Shown here piece after piece: positions 3,323 to 10,972 of a DNA stretch of 16,715 bases; positions within the stretch are counted from its first letter, which is position 1, and every line of letters starts with the position of its first letter. The translations under genes were made by a program, and so were the position numbers. This DNA comes from a virus: UHGV virus genome UHGV-1907752. The stretch is one strand, 5' to 3'. Below the pieces are notes generated by a model. That model did no database searches, was not told the origin of the DNA, and saw nothing but the letters and a program-made list of their open reading frames with translations.

Positions 3323-3344
3323 TAAAAAAACCGCCTCAGCGGTT
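3323..3344 (-). terminator. intrinsic-terminator-like hairpin (AACCGC-TGAG-GCGGTT followed by a U7 tract) between the GT extension stop and the tape measure start
   Basis: On the minus strand the sequence reads AACCGCTGAGGCGGTTTTTTTAC: a 6-bp stem, 4-nt loop and U-run. It sits in the 47-nt spacer between the T-frame stop (3353) and the tape measure ATG (3305). Confidence 0.45.
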
Positions 3345-3352
3345 CTCATCAT

Positions 3353-3667
3353 TCATGACTGTGCTGCAAAGCTCAGCGCGTCTTCCAGCGCCGCAAACGG
3401 ATCCACCTCCGGCTTATCCTCATCCTCGCCCCAGCAGAGCATGGCGTCCTTCAGTGCAACATTCATCCCCTGTGCCCCGAAAACCGCTTTCACGATCTGT
3501 GCATTACGGATATCCCCGCGCTCATCACCCAGCGGGGATACCCTGTCGAACTCCATCCACATCATCGCCTCGCTCACACTCAGGCTGTGCCGCAGTTCGG
3601 ATAAGGTGCGCCCCAGACGGAGCGCAAGTCGCATCAGAAAGCAAATTTCCGGGCGGGCTACTTTTTT
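3353..3667 (-). CDS. T-like C-terminal extension of the tail assembly chaperone, reached by a -1 programmed ribosomal frameshift from the G-like ORF (GT fusion product)
   Basis: The ORF 3353..3634 is in the -1 frame relative to the G-like ORF and that frame is open back to the slippery site. Translating from the slip gives ...KK-VARPEICFL-MRLALRLGRTLSELRH... with no stop. It occupies the position of lambda gene T between G and the tape measure gene. Confidence 0.7.
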   Translation of the reverse strand, partial: KKVARPEICFLMRLALRLGRTLSELRHSLSVSEAMMWMEFDRVSPLGDERGDIRNAQIVKAVFGAQGMNVALKDAMLCWGEDEDKPEVDPFAALEDALSFAAQS

Positions 3668-4032
3668 CTGGCCGACTCTGCATCAGCGATCAGTTCCAGT
3701 GCCTGACGCAGCAACCGGGCATGTACCGGACCATAGACGGCCAGCACCTGCTCACGGTCGTCCGGAGCGAACACCCGCTGCAGATCCGTATCACACAGGA
3801 CATCGCAGAACAGCGTCACATCCGCTTCCAGGTTACGGCGGGTTTTCGCCACCACCGACAGGGTATCGTCATCCTCTCCATCACCATTGAGCACTTCCTG
3901 CCACAGATACCAGGCCTCTGCCGAAGGCTCCCGCAGCACCACGCTGACATTACCCCATTCCGGCACCTTCACCGTTTTATGACGAAACCCTGACAGTCTG
4001 GCCAGCGCCAGCGTTTTCAGATCCTTTTTCAT
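3658..4032 (-). CDS. tail assembly chaperone (lambda G-like)
   Basis: About 124 aa, acidic, between the major tail protein and the tape measure gene, ending in the slippery site. I chose the internal ATG at 4030-4032 (MKKDLKTL...) because it has an AGGGGA Shine-Dalgarno about 9 nt upstream and avoids a 34-nt overlap with the major tail gene that the track start at 4080 would create. Confidence 0.7.
   Translation of the reverse strand: MKKDLKTLALARLSGFRHKTVKVPEWGNVSVVLREPSAEAWYLWQEVLNGDGEDDDTLSVVAKTRRNLEADVTLFCDVLCDTDLQRVFAPDDREQVLAVYGPVHARLLRQALELIADAESARKK
3661..3667 (-). promoter_or_regulatory. slippery heptamer A-AAA-AAG for the -1 frameshift, immediately before the G-like stop codon
   Basis: Minus-strand mRNA reads TCG GCC AGA AAA AAG TAG. 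The heptamer AAAAAAG sits in the X-XXY-YYZ register of the G frame and the TAG stop follows directly. Confidence 0.7.
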
Positions 4033-4046
4033 GATGACCCATCCCC

Positions 4047-8785: not shown

Positions 8786-8952
8786 TCGCCATGCTCCGCA
8801 TCACGTTTCTTTTTCTGACCTGCCGGACGTCGCACCGTGATGTACTCCGCCTTTCCCAGGCGAACCAGCACCTCCGCACACGGCTGTGCCACATCACGGA
8901 TATCCCCGGCCCGGGCATCATGCGTGCCCTGCAGATATCGGATCTTTGCCAT
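8731..8952 (-). CDS. hypothetical small protein (73 aa) between the capsid and portal genes; uncertain
   Basis: ORF beginning MAKIRYLQGTHDARAGDIRDVAQP… with an ATG at 8950-8952. It overlaps the portal start by about 55 nt in another frame and has only a weak AGG 4 nt upstream, so it may be spurious. Confidence 0.25.
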   Translation of the reverse strand: MAKIRYLQGTHDARAGDIRDVAQPCAEVLVRLGKAEYITVRRPAGQKKKRDAEHGECGTFYGEPEKTRNQDVT

Positions 8953-8996
8953 AACCTGTTACGGGAGGCGCACGCCTCCCGTCCTCCTTATCAGAC

Positions 8997-10934
8997 TCAG
9001 CCGCCGGACGCACTGCCGTAGTTCACTCCGGTGATCACCGCCACCGCCGCGGTACGGCGACGACGCCAGTTGATCCAGCGCTCCGCACGGATGGCCACGC
9101 TGCCTGTCTGGAACATGGAAACCAGCTCCACCGGGGACGGCGTGGTACTGTCGCCGGTCGGCTCAGACTGCATTTCCAGTGATGCCTCGCGGGACATATC
9201 CACTGCCACGCCGCCGTCATCCGCCAGATAAATATCCGGGGCATTCACCAGCACCAGCTGGTCACCCACGTACTGGGAGACAATCACCGGCAGCCCCTGG
9301 AAGGAGCCACCCAGCAGGGTCATGTCCGGGTATTCCTTCTGACCCAGCGCATTTTTACGCATGGACAGTGCCAGGGCATTGGTGCTGGACATCAGCCAGA
9401 CCGCACCGGTGGGCTGCAGGTTTGCTGCCACAAACTGTCCAAACGCAGCCTCTGCATCCGCATCCGGGTTACCGGTTGATGCCGTGCCCTTCACATCATG
9501 GGTGATGGACGCCGGGGAGACATCTGCCACTGCGGCTTTTTTCGGGTCCACAAAGTCTGTATCCAGACGCGCCACCACCGCTTCCGCCAGCGCATTACGG
9601 ACCAGTGCATCAGCAGCCGGACTGGAAAAACGGATCAATTCTTCCGTCAGTACCGCAATGGCCGACACCTTCGCATGACTGAAGGTGATGGATTCAAAAT
9701 CAAACTTCGTCAGGGGTCTGGCCTTACCCTCACCCACCCAGCCGGCAGCACCGCCGGACACCTGGGCGTGCACACGGATATTGAACGGCACCTGACGAAG
9801 TGCAGGGATCCCGCCCTGACCAAATCGCCCGATAATGGTCTGCGGACGCAGGTAATCAATAAAGTCCTGTGCGTATTCCTGATATTCAGACAGGCTGCCT
9901 GCCCACTGCGGATCCGTGGTGGTCCCCGCGCCCACTGCCGATTTCAGGACATGATGCAGACGACTGTCATCCGGATACTGACGACGGGCCACTTCCAGGG
10001 CTTCAGATCGGACGCCTTTAGCCGCAGCCAGCGATTTGGCAAAGCGGGCGAAGCCAATCCCCTTATCCAGTTTCTGCTCCACACGGATCACCGGCGCAGA
10101 AGCCACCGCGGCCACATTCCCGTTACCGGCCTGTTTCACCGGCTGCGCCGTGGCGGCCTTACCGGCTTCCAGTTCACGCAGGCGCTTCAGGTGCGCATCC
10201 ACCTGACGGATTTCCGCTGCGGTGTTGTCGTAATGCTCTTCCTCCTCCACATCCAGCGTGCGCCCTTCCTCTGCGGCTTTGGTCATGACCTCCTCAAGGG
10301 AGGCTGCCAGCGCTGCACGCTTGTTTTCAAAACTTTTAATCTGTTCGCCAATATTCATTATGGTCTTTTCCTTATGAAAAACGGTTGTTGACTGTGCCGC
10401 AGCGCCGGCAGAAGATGCGATTTTCACCACCGGTTTCCGGTTGCCGGACGCGGCAGAAAACGGGCGGTCGTAAGATTTAATGGTCCGGATGGTGCATTCC
10501 GCATTCGCGGGCACGGTGACGGCAGACACCTCCATCAGTTCCCAGCGCAGAAAATGCAGTCCGCCTCCGTCCAGAAAGGTGTATTCATGGGGACGGAAGC
10601 CCACGGACAGCCCCCTGACCAGCCCGGTCTTAATGGCCGCCCAGACCTCATCCAGCCGGGCAGCCAGTTGCGACGGCATATCCGGTACGGGCTTCACCAG
10701 TGTTGCCGTGATTTCCAGCCCTTCGCTGACCCGGCGCACCGTACACTGCCCCACCGGGCGGGAATGGTCATGCTGCCAGAGAAACGGGATCGCACTGCCA
10801 AACTCCGCGCCCTCCGGCTCCAGGATGTCACCATCCCGATCCGGAGAAGGCGTTGACGCAATCCCGGTGATCACCCGTTCATCCTCACTGAAGGATTTCA
10901 CCGTCAGCAGGGAACAGGCCCGTTTAAGAGTCAC
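8997..10934 (-). CDS. prohead protease - scaffold-like linker - major capsid protein (HK97-fold) fusion
   Basis: 645 aa. The N-terminal 150 aa carry HK97-type prohead protease (S78) motifs (…GIASTPSPDRDGDILEPEGAEF…FLWQHDHSRPVG…GLSVGF…VSAVTVPANAECTI). The middle is a charged, helical EEEE-containing segment. The C-terminal 300 aa are HK97-MCP-like (…VAIRAERW…). GTG start at 10932-10934 with AGGAGG 5 nt upstream. Confidence 0.75.
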   Translation of the reverse strand: MTLKRACSLLTVKSFSEDERVITGIASTPSPDRDGDILEPEGAEFGSAIPFLWQHDHSRPVGQCTVRRVSEGLEITATLVKPVPDMPSQLAARLDEVWAAIKTGLVRGLSVGFRPHEYTFLDGGGLHFLRWELMEVSAVTVPANAECTIRTIKSYDRPFSAASGNRKPVVKIASSAGAAAQSTTVFHKEKTIMNIGEQIKSFENKRAALAASLEEVMTKAAEEGRTLDVEEEEHYDNTAAEIRQVDAHLKRLRELEAGKAATAQPVKQAGNGNVAAVASAPVIRVEQKLDKGIGFARFAKSLAAAKGVRSEALEVARRQYPDDSRLHHVLKSAVGAGTTTDPQWAGSLSEYQEYAQDFIDYLRPQTIIGRFGQGGIPALRQVPFNIRVHAQVSGGAAGWVGEGKARPLTKFDFESITFSHAKVSAIAVLTEELIRFSSPAADALVRNALAEAVVARLDTDFVDPKKAAVADVSPASITHDVKGTASTGNPDADAEAAFGQFVAANLQPTGAVWLMSSTNALALSMRKNALGQKEYPDMTLLGGSFQGLPVIVSQYVGDQLVLVNAPDIYLADDGGVAVDMSREASLEMQSEPTGDSTTPSPVELVSMFQTGSVAIRAERWINWRRRRTAAVAVITGVNYGSASGG

Positions 10935-10950
10935 ATCAGCCTCCTGAAAA

Positions 10951-10972
10951 TAAAAAAACCGCCGGAGCGGTT
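10951..10972 (-). terminator. intrinsic-terminator-like hairpin (AACCGC-TCCG-GCGGTT plus U7) between TerL stop and the capsid-fusion RBS
   Basis: Minus strand reads GAACCGCTCCGGCGGTTTTTTTATTTTCAGGAGGCTGAT-GTG. It uses the same stem sequence as the hairpin at 3323-3344. Confidence 0.5.

What the first reader, a model, noticed from the sequence alone, without database searches (positions are those of the whole stretch)
3323..10972. Three terminator-like hairpins inside the late operon, each placed just upstream of a strong RBS
Short GC stems followed by U6-U7 runs occur on the coding strand at 10951-10972 (before the capsid fusion), 4777-4801 (before the major tail protein) and 3323-3344 (before the tape measure gene). 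Two of them share the identical stem AACCGC/GCGGTT. In a Q-type antiterminated late operon these would be read through during lytic growth but would insulate structural genes from read-through transcription in the lysogen. Alternatively they tune transcript 3' ends and stoichiometry. Their repeated placement and shared stem look non-random.
Basis: seen in the sequence. Interest (0 to 1): 0.5.

Follow-up and report, generated by a model that had tools for sequence, protein, structure and literature searches.

The report
Read-through terminator hairpins in prophage late operon
The three hairpins are real, evolutionarily maintained terminator-like signals sitting at the joints between functional blocks of a common E. 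coli prophage's virion-gene operon, but the same kind of signal was already annotated as "putative terminator" at the same joints of phage HK97, so this is a sound but ordinary finding whose actual function is still untested.

Summary
Observation confirmed. On the coding (minus) strand, GC stems followed by U6-U7 lie at 10973-10952, 4800-4780 and 3345-3324. They sit in three of only four intergenic gaps of 40 nt or more between TerS and the tape measure gene, each 13-25 nt before a strong RBS.

They are individually weak (-7 to -11 kcal/mol) and unremarkable against shuffles. Their placement and conservation are not chance:
- A stringent scan finds only four hits on the coding strand, all intergenic.
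- 41 loci from about 20 enterobacterial genera (chaperone G 47-64% identical) all carry a hairpin+U-run just upstream of the major tail gene. Stems differ and covary (6/6 pairs compensatory; 0/500 shuffles).
- The TerL|capsid hairpin recurs in Salmonella, Serratia, Pantoea, Kosakonia and Yokenella.
- The T|tape-measure hairpin has a second allele with another stem. It occupies the slot of the HK97 gp15 moron.

The HK97 GenBank record already annotates "putative terminators" at these junctions, and lambda has similar hairpins.

Best reading, with function inferred and not shown: these are intrinsic terminators that Q-modified polymerase reads through, and that stop other transcription in the lysogen. 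The shared stem is a common terminator motif. It is a new member of a known kind. Interest is low to moderate.

The parts
10947..10973 (-). H1: terminator-like hairpin GAACCGC-UCCG-GCGGUU, then U7 A U4. It lies 25 nt after the TerL stop and directly before the SD AGGAGG and GTG start of the protease-capsid fusion gene.
   Evidence: Sequence. Fold: -10.9 kcal/mol, z -2.7. Detected by the stringent scan. The stem is invariant in 80 close relatives while the loop varies. The same junction in Salmonella, Serratia, Pantoea, Kosakonia and Yokenella carries ACCCGC-N4-GCGGGU + U6, so the window has lost one base pair on both arms.
4780..4800 (-). H2: terminator-like hairpin CCCGC-CGCGU-GCGGG + U6. It lies 29 nt after the stop of the gp17-like tail completion gene and directly before the SD AGGAGG and ATG of the major tail gene.
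   Evidence: Sequence. Fold: stem -7.5, MFE -9.9 kcal/mol. The hairpin is invariant in 79 close relatives although the spacer upstream has indels. A hairpin+U-run is present at this junction in 41 of 41 distant loci, with about 27 different stems. Covariation was found in 6 of 6 pairs. HK97 annotates a 'putative terminator' at 6692-6719 at the homologous gp11|gp12 junction.
3324..3345 (-). H3: terminator-like hairpin (G)AACCGC-UGAG-GCGGUU + U7. It lies 8 nt after the stop of chaperone T and 18 nt before the ATG of the tape measure gene.
   Evidence: Sequence. Fold: -10.8 kcal/mol. A second allele, AAAACCUGC-UGUG-GCAGGUUUU + U8-9, occurs in 13 of 71 relatives and in Sakai Sp9. This junction is the moron slot of HK97 (gp15, with a terminator at 8398-8422). 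In 39 distant loci it holds nothing in 13, a hairpin only in 6, and inserted ORFs in 20, of which about 18 end with a terminator just before the tape measure gene (15 detected by the scanner, 3 more judged by eye where the automatic call missed the hairpin).
8961..8982 (-). Fourth junction hairpin, not in the finding: ACGGGAGGC-GUGC-GCCUCCCGU. It has 9 bp and no U-run, and lies immediately after the protease-capsid fusion gene.
   Evidence: Gap listing. Fold: -18.9 kcal/mol, z -2.7. The same junction in seven loci of other genera has GGCGGGG-loop-CCCCGCC, a different stem with the same structure, and some copies carry U4. HK97 annotates a putative terminator after its capsid gene at 5192-5213.
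4815..4843 (-). Weak extra hairpin AGGUCAC-GGU-GUGACUU followed by a U-rich run. It overlaps the stop codon of the gp17-like gene, upstream of H2.
   Evidence: -6.4 kcal/mol. It is deleted in some close relatives, including Sakai Sp9, so it is probably not an essential part.
15900..15932 (-). Strong canonical terminator (15-bp stem, -20 to -22.6 kcal/mol, z -5) on the same strand. It lies 90 nt after the endolysin gene and upstream of Rz and all virion genes.
   Evidence: Late transcription has to pass it, which is why terminator-resistant (antiterminated) polymerase is the expected transcriber of everything downstream, including H1-H3.

Best explanation
H1-H3 are genuine intrinsic (Rho-independent) terminator modules. 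The U-less hairpin after the capsid gene belongs to the same set of junction signals.

They stand at the few untranslated joints that divide the late operon into five blocks:
- packaging (TerS-TerL)
- protease-capsid
- portal, connector and tail completion
- tail tube plus chaperones (V-G-T)
- tape measure and tail tip

Proposed mechanism:
- During lytic growth, the polymerase that starts at the late promoter is modified by the Q antiterminator and runs through them. It must also run through the much stronger terminator at 15932.
- Any other polymerase stops there. That includes polymerase reading in from host DNA, from moron promoters or from cryptic internal promoters in the repressed prophage.
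- As a result, the strongly translated capsid, tail tube and tape measure genes stay silent in the lysogen.
- H3 stands in the classical moron slot, where in relatives it ends the moron's own transcript.

Shown here: sequence anatomy, strand, placement, conservation with compensatory change, and homology of position with HK97's annotated putative terminators.

Inferred, not shown: that they terminate, that Q-modified polymerase ignores them, and that insulation is the selected benefit.
For: - Canonical anatomy on the transcribed strand, in intergenic gaps only.
- The U-run directly abuts the stem in every allele and homologue. A U-run is needed for termination but not for a mere stabilising hairpin.
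- UNCG-type loops and GC-rich stems, to my knowledge typical of real terminators, are common in the family.
- Within E. coli, H3 was replaced by a different stem of the same architecture. H1's A-to-G change keeps the pair as G-U.
- Across 41 loci of about 20 genera, the pre-major-tail hairpin is present in 41 of 41 (39 by automatic call, 2 by eye). It starts 4-22 nt after the upstream stop and ends 18-25 nt before the ATG.
- On 29 distinct sequences, 87.9% of cells pair and 6 of 6 pairs show double changes. No shuffle of 500 reaches any measure, and slid controls give 31-57%.
- 101 of 133 coding-strand hits in 251 kb lie within 40 nt after an ORF end, in windows covering at most 9% of the sequence.
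- The HK97 record annotates putative terminators at the portal|protease, MCP|gp6, gp11|major tail, major tail|chaperone and moron|tape measure junctions.
- Lambda has hairpin+U-run at D|E, I|J and J|lom, and a further hairpin at E|FI with only a weak U-run.
- The strong terminator at 15932 shows the operon depends on terminator-resistant transcription. An antiterminator gene lies upstream of the same module in Sakai Sp9.
- A terminator acting as an insulator, overridden by element-encoded antitermination, has experimental precedent in Tn916 (abstract of PMC11658703).
Against: - No transcript 3' ends or read-through ratios were available. Term-seq for strain Sakai exists, but its tables are not held.
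- The stems are short (5-7 bp, -7 to -10 kcal/mol), so efficiency against unmodified polymerase may be only partial.
- The insulator idea does not explain why the hairpin before the major tail gene is universal, while the one before the tape measure gene is absent in a third of relatives.
- It also does not explain why the U-run always abuts the SD. That is equally expected if the module serves translation or mRNA stability.
- The window does not contain Q or the late promoter. The antitermination type is inferred from relatives.
Confidence: 0.55

Rival explanations
1. The hairpin-U-run-SD modules act after transcription, during lytic growth. Once the long late transcript is cut, each hairpin would protect the 3' end of the upstream segment from exonucleases, or cap the 5' end of the downstream segment. 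The U-rich single strand between stem and SD would serve as a ribosome (S1) landing site. This would give independent, very strong initiation for the capsid and tail tube proteins at the only junctions where translational coupling is broken. Terminator likeness would then be secondary.
For: - Every element is immediately followed by a strong SD with no spare nucleotides. The distance from stem end to ATG is 18-25 nt in 39 distant loci.
- H1 and H2 share 24 of 27 nt over the 3' arm, U-run and SD, like a cassette.
- The universal site precedes the most abundant tail protein, and H1 precedes the capsid protein.
- The hairpin after the capsid gene lacks a U-run and looks like a pure stabiliser.
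- All other junctions overlap or are at most 23 nt.
Against: - A stabiliser or RBS insulator does not need a U-run abutting the stem, yet the U-run is kept in every homologue.
- The tape measure protein, downstream of H3, is a low-copy protein.
- Tight spacing is also what genome compaction alone would give.
- There is no processing or half-life data.
Confidence: 0.25
2. The terminators are the 3' ends of small or 3'-UTR-derived, Hfq-binding RNAs made from the repressed prophage. An example would be an RNA covering the last 70 nt of gene T plus H3. These would resemble other prophage sRNAs of pathogenic E. coli.
For: - There is a weak Rfam match to IsrK at 3324-3391 (27.1 bits, E 0.02 for the window).
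- A hairpin with a U7 tail is the usual Hfq proximal-face module (PMC4104026).
- EHEC prophages encode many Hfq-bound sRNAs. One of them, HnrS, lies in this late region, and its locus is 95% identical to window 14731-14898.
- The Hfq-CRAC screen excluded sense peaks within 100 bp of genes, so it could not have seen such RNAs.
Against: - The score is far below the IsrK gathering score of 50.
- The region folds no better than shuffles (z -0.43).
- No promoter-like site lies upstream on that strand.
- IsrK comes from an antitermination-regulated promoter region, not from tail genes (PMC7547250).
- None of the 64 listed Hfq peaks maps to these junctions in Sp9.
Confidence: 0.07
3. H3, and possibly others, is an evolutionary leftover. 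It would be the terminator of a moron whose gene was lost, or an empty landing pad. It would persist because it is harmless under antitermination, with no function of its own in this phage.
For: - The T|tape-measure junction carries inserted ORFs in 20 of 39 distant loci and in HK97 (gp15). About 18 of these 20 end with a terminator just before the tape measure gene (15 found by the scanner, 3 more by eye).
- 13 loci have a tight 19-26-nt junction without any hairpin, so the hairpin is dispensable for a working tail operon.
Against: - The hairpin-only state recurs in six distant loci with different stems.
- Within E. coli it was replaced by another functional-looking hairpin rather than decaying.
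- The idea cannot apply to the pre-major-tail site, which never carries an insert and is universal.
Confidence: 0.1

Closest known systems
'Putative terminator' features inside the late operon of phage HK97 (GenBank AF069529; Juhala et al. 2000, cited in PMC3594210)
   Same: - The elements sit at the same junctions: before the protease/capsid genes, after the capsid gene, between the tail completion gene and the major tail gene, and just before the tape measure gene.
- They have the same anatomy. HK97 GAACCCGCC-AGAU-GGCGGGUUU UCUUUUUCCAGGAGACAGCUAUG compares with window CCCGC-CGCGU-GCGGG UUUUUUAUUAUCAGGAGGCAGAAUG.
- The tail genes are homologous (Pfam TAC_1, Phage_tail_T and HK97 TLTM).
   Different: - The head gene order differs: the window has a protease-capsid fusion placed before the portal gene.
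- The window has no moron at T|H and no hairpin between the major tail and chaperone genes.
- The stem sequences differ.
- The HK97 features are also only predictions.
Lambda Q antitermination at tR' and beyond, and hairpins in lambda's own late operon
   Same: - Both are lambdoid late operons transcribed by terminator-resistant polymerase.
- Lambda has hairpin+U-run at D|E (AGGCCGCC-UGUG-CGGCUU + U7, just before the capsid gene E), at I|J and at J|lom. A further hairpin at E|FI has only a weak U-run.
   Different: - Lambda's U|V junction (7 nt) and T/H junction (overlap) leave no room for H2- or H3-type elements.
- The window itself does not include Q, qut or pR'.
Moron terminators (HK97 gp15 moron between the tail chaperone and tape measure genes)
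   Same: H3 lies at exactly that slot. In relatives, the inserted genes there end with a terminator directly before the tape measure gene.
   Different: The window has the terminator without any inserted gene or recognisable promoter.
Insulator terminator of Tn916 overridden by element-encoded antitermination (PMC11658703)
   Same: The concept is the same: a terminator that blocks premature read-in expression of a mobile element's genes, and that is bypassed when the element activates.
   Different: The element, host and antitermination system are unrelated. The comparison rests on that paper's abstract only.
Rfam IsrK (RF01394), Gifsy-1 prophage sRNA
   Same: Both have two small hairpins plus a CCGC/GCGG terminator with a U-tail.
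   Different: - The match scores 27.1 bits against a gathering score of 50.
- The genomic context is different.
- There is no excess structure.
- It is not a member.

Membership tests
Intrinsic (Rho-independent) terminator | G+C-rich stem-loop on the transcribed strand | tested here: met
   H1 has 6-7 bp with 4 G-C pairs. H2 has 5 bp, all G-C. H3 has 6-7 bp with 4 G-C pairs. Hairpin dG is -7.1 to -10.3 kcal/mol. All three are on the gene strand.
Intrinsic (Rho-independent) terminator | U-tract immediately 3' of the stem | tested here: met
   The tracts are U7, U6 and U7, and they start at the last stem pair. They are kept, at 6-9 U, in all alleles and homologues.
Intrinsic (Rho-independent) terminator | Location outside translated sequence, far enough from the upstream stop codon for the hairpin to form | tested here: met
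   The hairpins start 25, 29 and 8 nt after the upstream stop. In distant loci the pre-tail hairpin starts 4-22 nt after the stop.
Intrinsic (Rho-independent) terminator | Structure maintained by selection (compensatory change) | tested here: met
   6 of 6 pairs have double changes and 0 of 500 shuffles reach the observed values. There is a whole-stem replacement at H3. Both arms of H1 are shortened by one base.
Intrinsic (Rho-independent) terminator | RNA 3' ends formed at the U-tract in vivo or in vitro | not testable with these tools
   Term-seq of strain Sakai exists (GEO, cited in PMC7547250), but no table is held.
HK97-type late-operon junction terminators | Position at the homologous gene junctions of an HK97-like head-tail module | tested here: met
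   The HK97 features at 3309-3335, 5192-5213, 6692-6719 and 8398-8422 correspond to H1, the post-capsid hairpin, H2 and H3. The gene families match.
Q-antiterminated lambdoid late operon | Q gene, qut site and late promoter upstream of the operon | tested here: inconclusive
   These are not inside the window, which ends in the lysis genes. The same module in Sakai Sp9 has an annotated antiterminator 9 kb upstream of TerS. Close relatives are Stx-converting lambdoid phages.
Moron (promoter-gene-terminator insert) | An extra gene with its own promoter between two conserved late genes | tested here: not met
   The T|H gap is only 47 nt, with no ORF and no promoter-like site. Only the terminator and the slot correspond.
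Rfam IsrK RF01394 | Score at or above the family's gathering score | tested here: not met
   The match scores 27.1 bits against 50. The fold is no better than shuffles.
EHEC prophage anti-sRNAs (AgvB/AsxR) and other listed Hfq-bound prophage sRNAs | Position 3' of pR' in the moron site, or coincidence with a mapped Hfq peak | tested here: not met
   The anti-sRNAs lie 3' of pR'. No peak of Table S2 coincides with the three junctions in Sp9. The screen's filter would have hidden them, so absence is weak evidence.

The most novel reading that the evidence does not exclude
The hairpin-U-run-SD cassette before the major tail gene, and its counterpart before the capsid gene, may not be a mere safety lock. 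It may be a required expression module of the lytic programme. In that case it would set the 5' or 3' ends of stable sub-messages and drive the very high, uncoupled translation of the two most abundant virion proteins. Alternatively it may yield Hfq-bound RNAs from the prophage. Its presence in 41 of 41 loci across about 20 genera, always abutting the SD, is stronger conservation than a dispensable insulator would be expected to show. By contrast, the tape-measure hairpin comes and goes.
Probability: 0.2. Interest if true: 0.55.

Novelty: new member of a known kind. Interest (0 to 1): 0.3.

Why it matters
This head-tail module is in 1246 of 5426 complete E. coli genomes, with up to 8 copies per genome. 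That includes Stx-converting phages.

If the hairpins work as terminators, they set how tightly virion genes are silenced in lysogens. They also mark where accessory genes (morons) can be inserted and still be expressed without switching on tail genes.

The comparative result is a clean, testable regularity of HK97-like late operons: one hairpin+U-run immediately before the major tail gene in every relative examined, with covarying stems. Nobody seems to have tested it experimentally. Existing Term-seq data for strain Sakai could settle it quickly.

It does not change current understanding of lambdoid gene control.

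Tried and rejected
1. AgvB-type anti-sRNA. I recalled from memory that H3 might be the terminator of such an RNA. This was wrong: those RNAs lie 3' of pR'.

2. IsrK membership. The Rfam match is weak (27 against 50 bits). The context differs and there is no excess structure.

3. Match to published Hfq-bound prophage sRNAs.
   - I read Table S2 of Tree et al. and mapped it on Sakai Sp15 and Sp9.
   - Sp15 has a different, lambda-type head module.
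   - In Sp9 no listed peak coincides with the junctions.
   - Their filter removes sense peaks within 100 bp of genes, so this is uninformative.

4. Pas sRNAs. They have an unrelated genomic context.

5. Term-seq tables of Sy et al. 2020 and the HK97 gp15 paper are not held.

6. A d-score for terminators, written from memory. It gave a negative value even for the obviously strong terminator at 15932, so I do not trust my formula or my stem/tail boundaries and do not use it.

7. The generic promoter/terminator scan. It shows no overall enrichment, so significance had to come from placement and comparison instead.

8. H1 as the first terminator downstream of a candidate moron promoter (14634-14607). 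This is not tenable. A -16 kcal/mol hairpin followed by U-rich sequence lies at about 13420-13375, before TerS.

9. Literature searches for experimental work on terminators inside late operons found nothing directly relevant.

Full report
**What the window is**

All genes of interest are on the minus strand. Pfam scans give the following order:
- endolysin (16556-16023)
- Rz (15464-14913)
- a TonB_C-like ORF
- TerS (13219-12656)
- TerL (12659-10998)
- a prohead protease-major capsid fusion (10934-8997)
- a 73-aa ORF
- portal (8785-6998, plus a 242-aa ORF)
- gp6-like connector
- head completion protein
- HK97 gp10-like protein
- gp17-like tail completion protein (5174-4830)
- major tail protein with an Ig domain (4763-4047)
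- chaperones G (4032-3658) and T (3634-3353)
- tape measure protein (3305-63)

The DNA is 94-98% identical to Stx1a/Stx2c-converting phages and to an Escherichia siphophage. The tail part occurs in 1246 of 5426 complete E. coli genomes, with up to 8 copies per genome. Prophage Sp9 of O157:H7 Sakai has the same module downstream of an annotated antiterminator gene.

**Check of the observation**

The three elements are present as described.
- H1 is GAACCGC-UCCG-GCGGUU followed by U7 A U4 (10973-10947).
- H2 is CCCGC-CGCGU-GCGGG followed by U6 (4800-4780).
- H3 is (G)AACCGC-UGAG-GCGGUU followed by U7 (3345-3324).

Each lies in an intergenic gap (63, 66 and 47 nt) and is followed at once by an SD and a start codon. 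Predicted energies are -10.9, -9.9 and -10.8 kcal/mol. The z-scores against shuffles are only -2.7, -0.9 and -1.6. The generic scan finds as many terminator-like sites as in shuffles (15 against 15.4). So no hairpin is remarkable on its own.

Placement is what stands out. Between TerS and the tape measure gene, all junctions overlap or are at most 23 nt, except four gaps of 44-66 nt, and every one of those four holds a GC hairpin. With a stricter scanner (perfect stem of at least 5 bp, at least 4 G-C pairs, at least 5 U of 8), the coding strand has four hits in 16.7 kb: H1, H2, H3 and a strong terminator at 15932-15900. All are intergenic. Shuffles give 1.76 +/- 1.4 hits. The four large gaps are 1.7% of the operon, so three of three hits falling there has a naive probability of about 5e-6.

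- One after the capsid gene (8982-8961, 9 bp, -18.9 kcal/mol, no U-run).
- A weak hairpin+U-run at 4843-4827.

**Close relatives**

I compared 160 IMG/VR loci whose proteins are 89-100% identical.
- The H1 stem core is invariant, while its loop changes (UCCG to UGCG). An A-to-G change at the stem base keeps the pair as G-U.
- H2, its U-run and its SD are invariant, although the spacer just upstream has indels.
- In 13 of 71 loci, and in Sakai Sp9, H3 is replaced by AAAACCUGC-UGUG-GCAGGUUUU followed by U8-9. This is a different stem of the same design, set between unchanged flanks.

**Distant relatives**

An alignment of chaperone G homologues retrieved 41 loci from species-representative genomes. 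The genera include Enterobacter, Kosakonia, Klebsiella, Raoultella, Leclercia, Serratia, Pectobacterium, Brenneria, Symbiopectobacterium, Morganella, Proteus, Providencia, Erwinia, Pantoea and others. Their G proteins are 47-64% identical to the window's.

The pre-major-tail site:
- All 41 loci have a hairpin+U-run immediately upstream of the major tail gene. 39 were classified automatically and two by eye.
- The hairpin starts 4-22 nt after the stop of a 110-130-codon ORF.
- It ends 18-25 nt before the ATG of an ORF whose N-terminus matches the window's major tail protein (MSALYEKSQ...).
- There are about 27 different stems, for example GACCGCC/GGCGGUU, AAGCUGC/GCAGCUU, GCCGCC/GGCGGC and AAGCCACC/GGUGGUUU.

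Covariation was tested on 29 distinct sequences, including the window and HK97.
- RNAalifold predicts the hairpin, and all six pairs show double compensatory changes.
- 87.9% of cells pair, and 0 of 500 column shuffles reach any of five measures.
- Sliding the partner by 1-3 columns drops pairing to 31-57%.

Over all 251 kb, 101 of 133 coding-strand hits lie within 40 nt after an ORF end.

Other junctions in the same loci:
- At least 26 loci have a hairpin+U-run after a long ORF about 2 kb upstream of G. By position this ORF is probably the capsid gene, but it was not checked.
- 7 loci have one right after the major tail gene.

**The H1 site in other genera**

Fusion-protein homologues of 73-77% identity come from Salmonella, Serratia, Pantoea, Kosakonia and Yokenella.
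- All have a 58-nt TerL|capsid gap holding ACCCGC-N4-GCGGGU, then U6, then GGAGG.
- The window's ACCGC/GCGGU has lost one base on both arms.
- All also have a strong hairpin after the capsid gene (GGCGGGG-loop-CCCCGCC), with a stem unrelated to the window's.

**The H3 site is the moron slot**

Among 39 scorable loci, the T|tape-measure junction falls into three states:
- Tight (19-26 nt) and without a hairpin in 13 loci.
- A hairpin only, in a 35-37-nt gap, in 6 loci. This is the window's state.
- One or more inserted ORFs (277-1688 nt) in 20 loci. About 18 of these end with a terminator just before the tape measure gene. The scanner detected 15, and the other three (L170, L174, L203) were judged by eye where the automatic ORF call or the G-C threshold missed the hairpin.

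In HK97 this is where the first described moron, gene 15, sits. It has its own promoter and terminator.

**Comparison with what is known**

The HK97 GenBank record already carries 'regulatory: terminator, putative' features inside the late operon. They are at:
- portal|protease
- capsid|gp6
- gp11|major tail
- major tail|chaperone
- moron|tape measure
- before I
- before J

The first, second, third and fifth are the positional counterparts of H1, the post-capsid hairpin, H2 and H3. The gp11|gp12 sequence has the same hairpin-U-run-CAGGAG-ATG layout. Lambda has hairpin+U-run at D|E (directly before capsid gene E), I|J and J|lom, and a further hairpin at E|FI with only a weak U-run. Its U|V and T/H junctions are too tight for such elements. 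Sakai Sp9 shows further hits before J and around lom.

So the kind is known and the window's elements are unannotated members of it. The records of close relatives list no regulatory features there.

**The shared stem**

H1 and H3 share 21 of 23 nt. H1 and H2 share 24 of 27 nt over the 3' arm, U-run and SD. Among 100 junction hairpins of the distant loci, 54 have a CCGC..GCGG or CGCC..GGCG core and 40 have a C-UNCG-G loop. Near-identical hairpins, such as AACCCGC-UCCG-GCGGGUU, turn up at different junctions in different phages. The resemblance is therefore best read as a common terminator motif. Occasional copying between sites remains possible. It is not a specific link between two sites.

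**How it most likely works**

Shown:
- canonical terminator anatomy on the transcribed strand
- restriction to untranslated joints
- selection for the hairpin and for the abutting U-run

Inferred:
- Unmodified polymerase terminates there, probably only partially given the 5-7-bp stems.
- Polymerase modified at the late promoter by Q reads through.

The second inference is supported indirectly. A far stronger terminator (15 bp, -20 to -22.6 kcal/mol, z -5) lies between the endolysin gene and everything downstream. The phage can only make Rz and virions if late transcription is terminator-resistant.

The selected benefit would be to keep the strongly translated capsid, tail tube and tape measure genes silent in the lysogen, against read-in and moron-driven transcription. 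At H3 it would also end moron transcripts. An insulator terminator overridden by element-encoded antitermination has been demonstrated for Tn916 (abstract of PMC11658703).

**Rival readings**

The main rival is a post-transcriptional role in lytic growth: end protection of sub-messages, and a U-rich ribosome landing site that gives uncoupled, very high translation. It accounts for the constant abutment to the SD and for the universality of the pre-tail-tube site. It does not explain why the U-run must touch the stem.

An sRNA reading rests only on a sub-threshold IsrK match. The region folds no better than chance.

A 'moron scar' reading is possible for H3 only.

**Verdict**

The finding is a new member of a known kind. 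The comparative regularity is worth a short experimental test, and Term-seq data that could provide it already exist for strain Sakai.

Noticed in passing
window 8961-8982 (-): A strong hairpin without a U-run (ACGGGAGGC-GUGC-GCCUCCCGU, -18.9 kcal/mol) lies directly after the protease-capsid fusion gene. It is conserved in structure, but with an unrelated stem, in seven loci of other genera.
   Followed up: yes
window 15900-15932 (-): A very strong terminator (15-bp stem, z -5) lies 90 nt after the endolysin gene. It is followed by a 90-aa ORF without Pfam hits (15752-15480) and then Rz. In Sakai Sp9 the same R-Rz slot holds an antirepressor gene instead, so this looks like a moron slot inside the lysis cassette.
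   Followed up: partly
window 14731-14898, sRNA expected on the + strand at about 14791-14838: This stretch is 95% identical over 168 nt to the Sakai Sp9 region that holds the Hfq-bound sRNA EcOnc12, now named HnrS (PLoS Pathog 2026, PMC13502914). HnrS is antisense to the late operon, between Rz and TerS. The window therefore probably encodes an HnrS copy.
   Followed up: partly
window 14248-14634 (-): A 113-aa ORF with a TonB C-terminal domain (E 1e-14) is preceded by the only promoter-like site on the coding strand (14634-14607, with an extended -10 TG). It is a candidate moron between the lysis and packaging genes.
   Followed up: no
window 13220-13425 (-): Upstream of TerS there are five copies of the GTTAAC(A) motif. 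They include a near-palindrome (GGGCAGTTAACATGTTAACTGGCTGCCC, hairpin -16 kcal/mol) followed by U-rich sequence. These may be terminase-binding or cos-region repeats, or a terminator for the upstream accessory genes.
   Followed up: partly
window 6676-7259 and ORFs 6998-8785 / 6297-7025: Three copies of a 195-nt repeat (72-87% identical) lie in the C-terminal extension of the portal gene. Here the reading frame is split into a 595-aa ORF and a 242-aa ORF (the latter with a CBM_5_12 hit). Sakai Sp9 has a single 859-aa portal, and a Stx1a phage record annotates two portal CDS. This may be a frameshift or repeat-mediated rearrangement.
   Followed up: no
L164-L204, junction between chaperone T and the tape measure gene: In 20 of 39 distant loci this junction carries one or more inserted ORFs (60-300 aa), as in HK97 gp15. 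About 18 of these end with a terminator just before the tape measure gene (15 found by the scanner, 3 judged by eye). It is a widely used accessory-gene slot whose cargo was not examined.
   Followed up: partly
L206 (lambda J02459) 6099-6125, 7163-7180, 15464-15481: Lambda itself has hairpin+U-run elements at D|E (immediately before capsid gene E) and I|J, and a hairpin at E|FI with only a weak U-run. None of these is annotated in the record.
   Followed up: partly
window 10936-10962 versus 4764-4790: H1 and H2 share 24 of 27 nt across the 3' arm, U-run, spacer and SD (GCGG(G)UUUUUUAUUNUCAGGAGGC). This is cassette-like similarity extending beyond the hairpin.
   Followed up: partly
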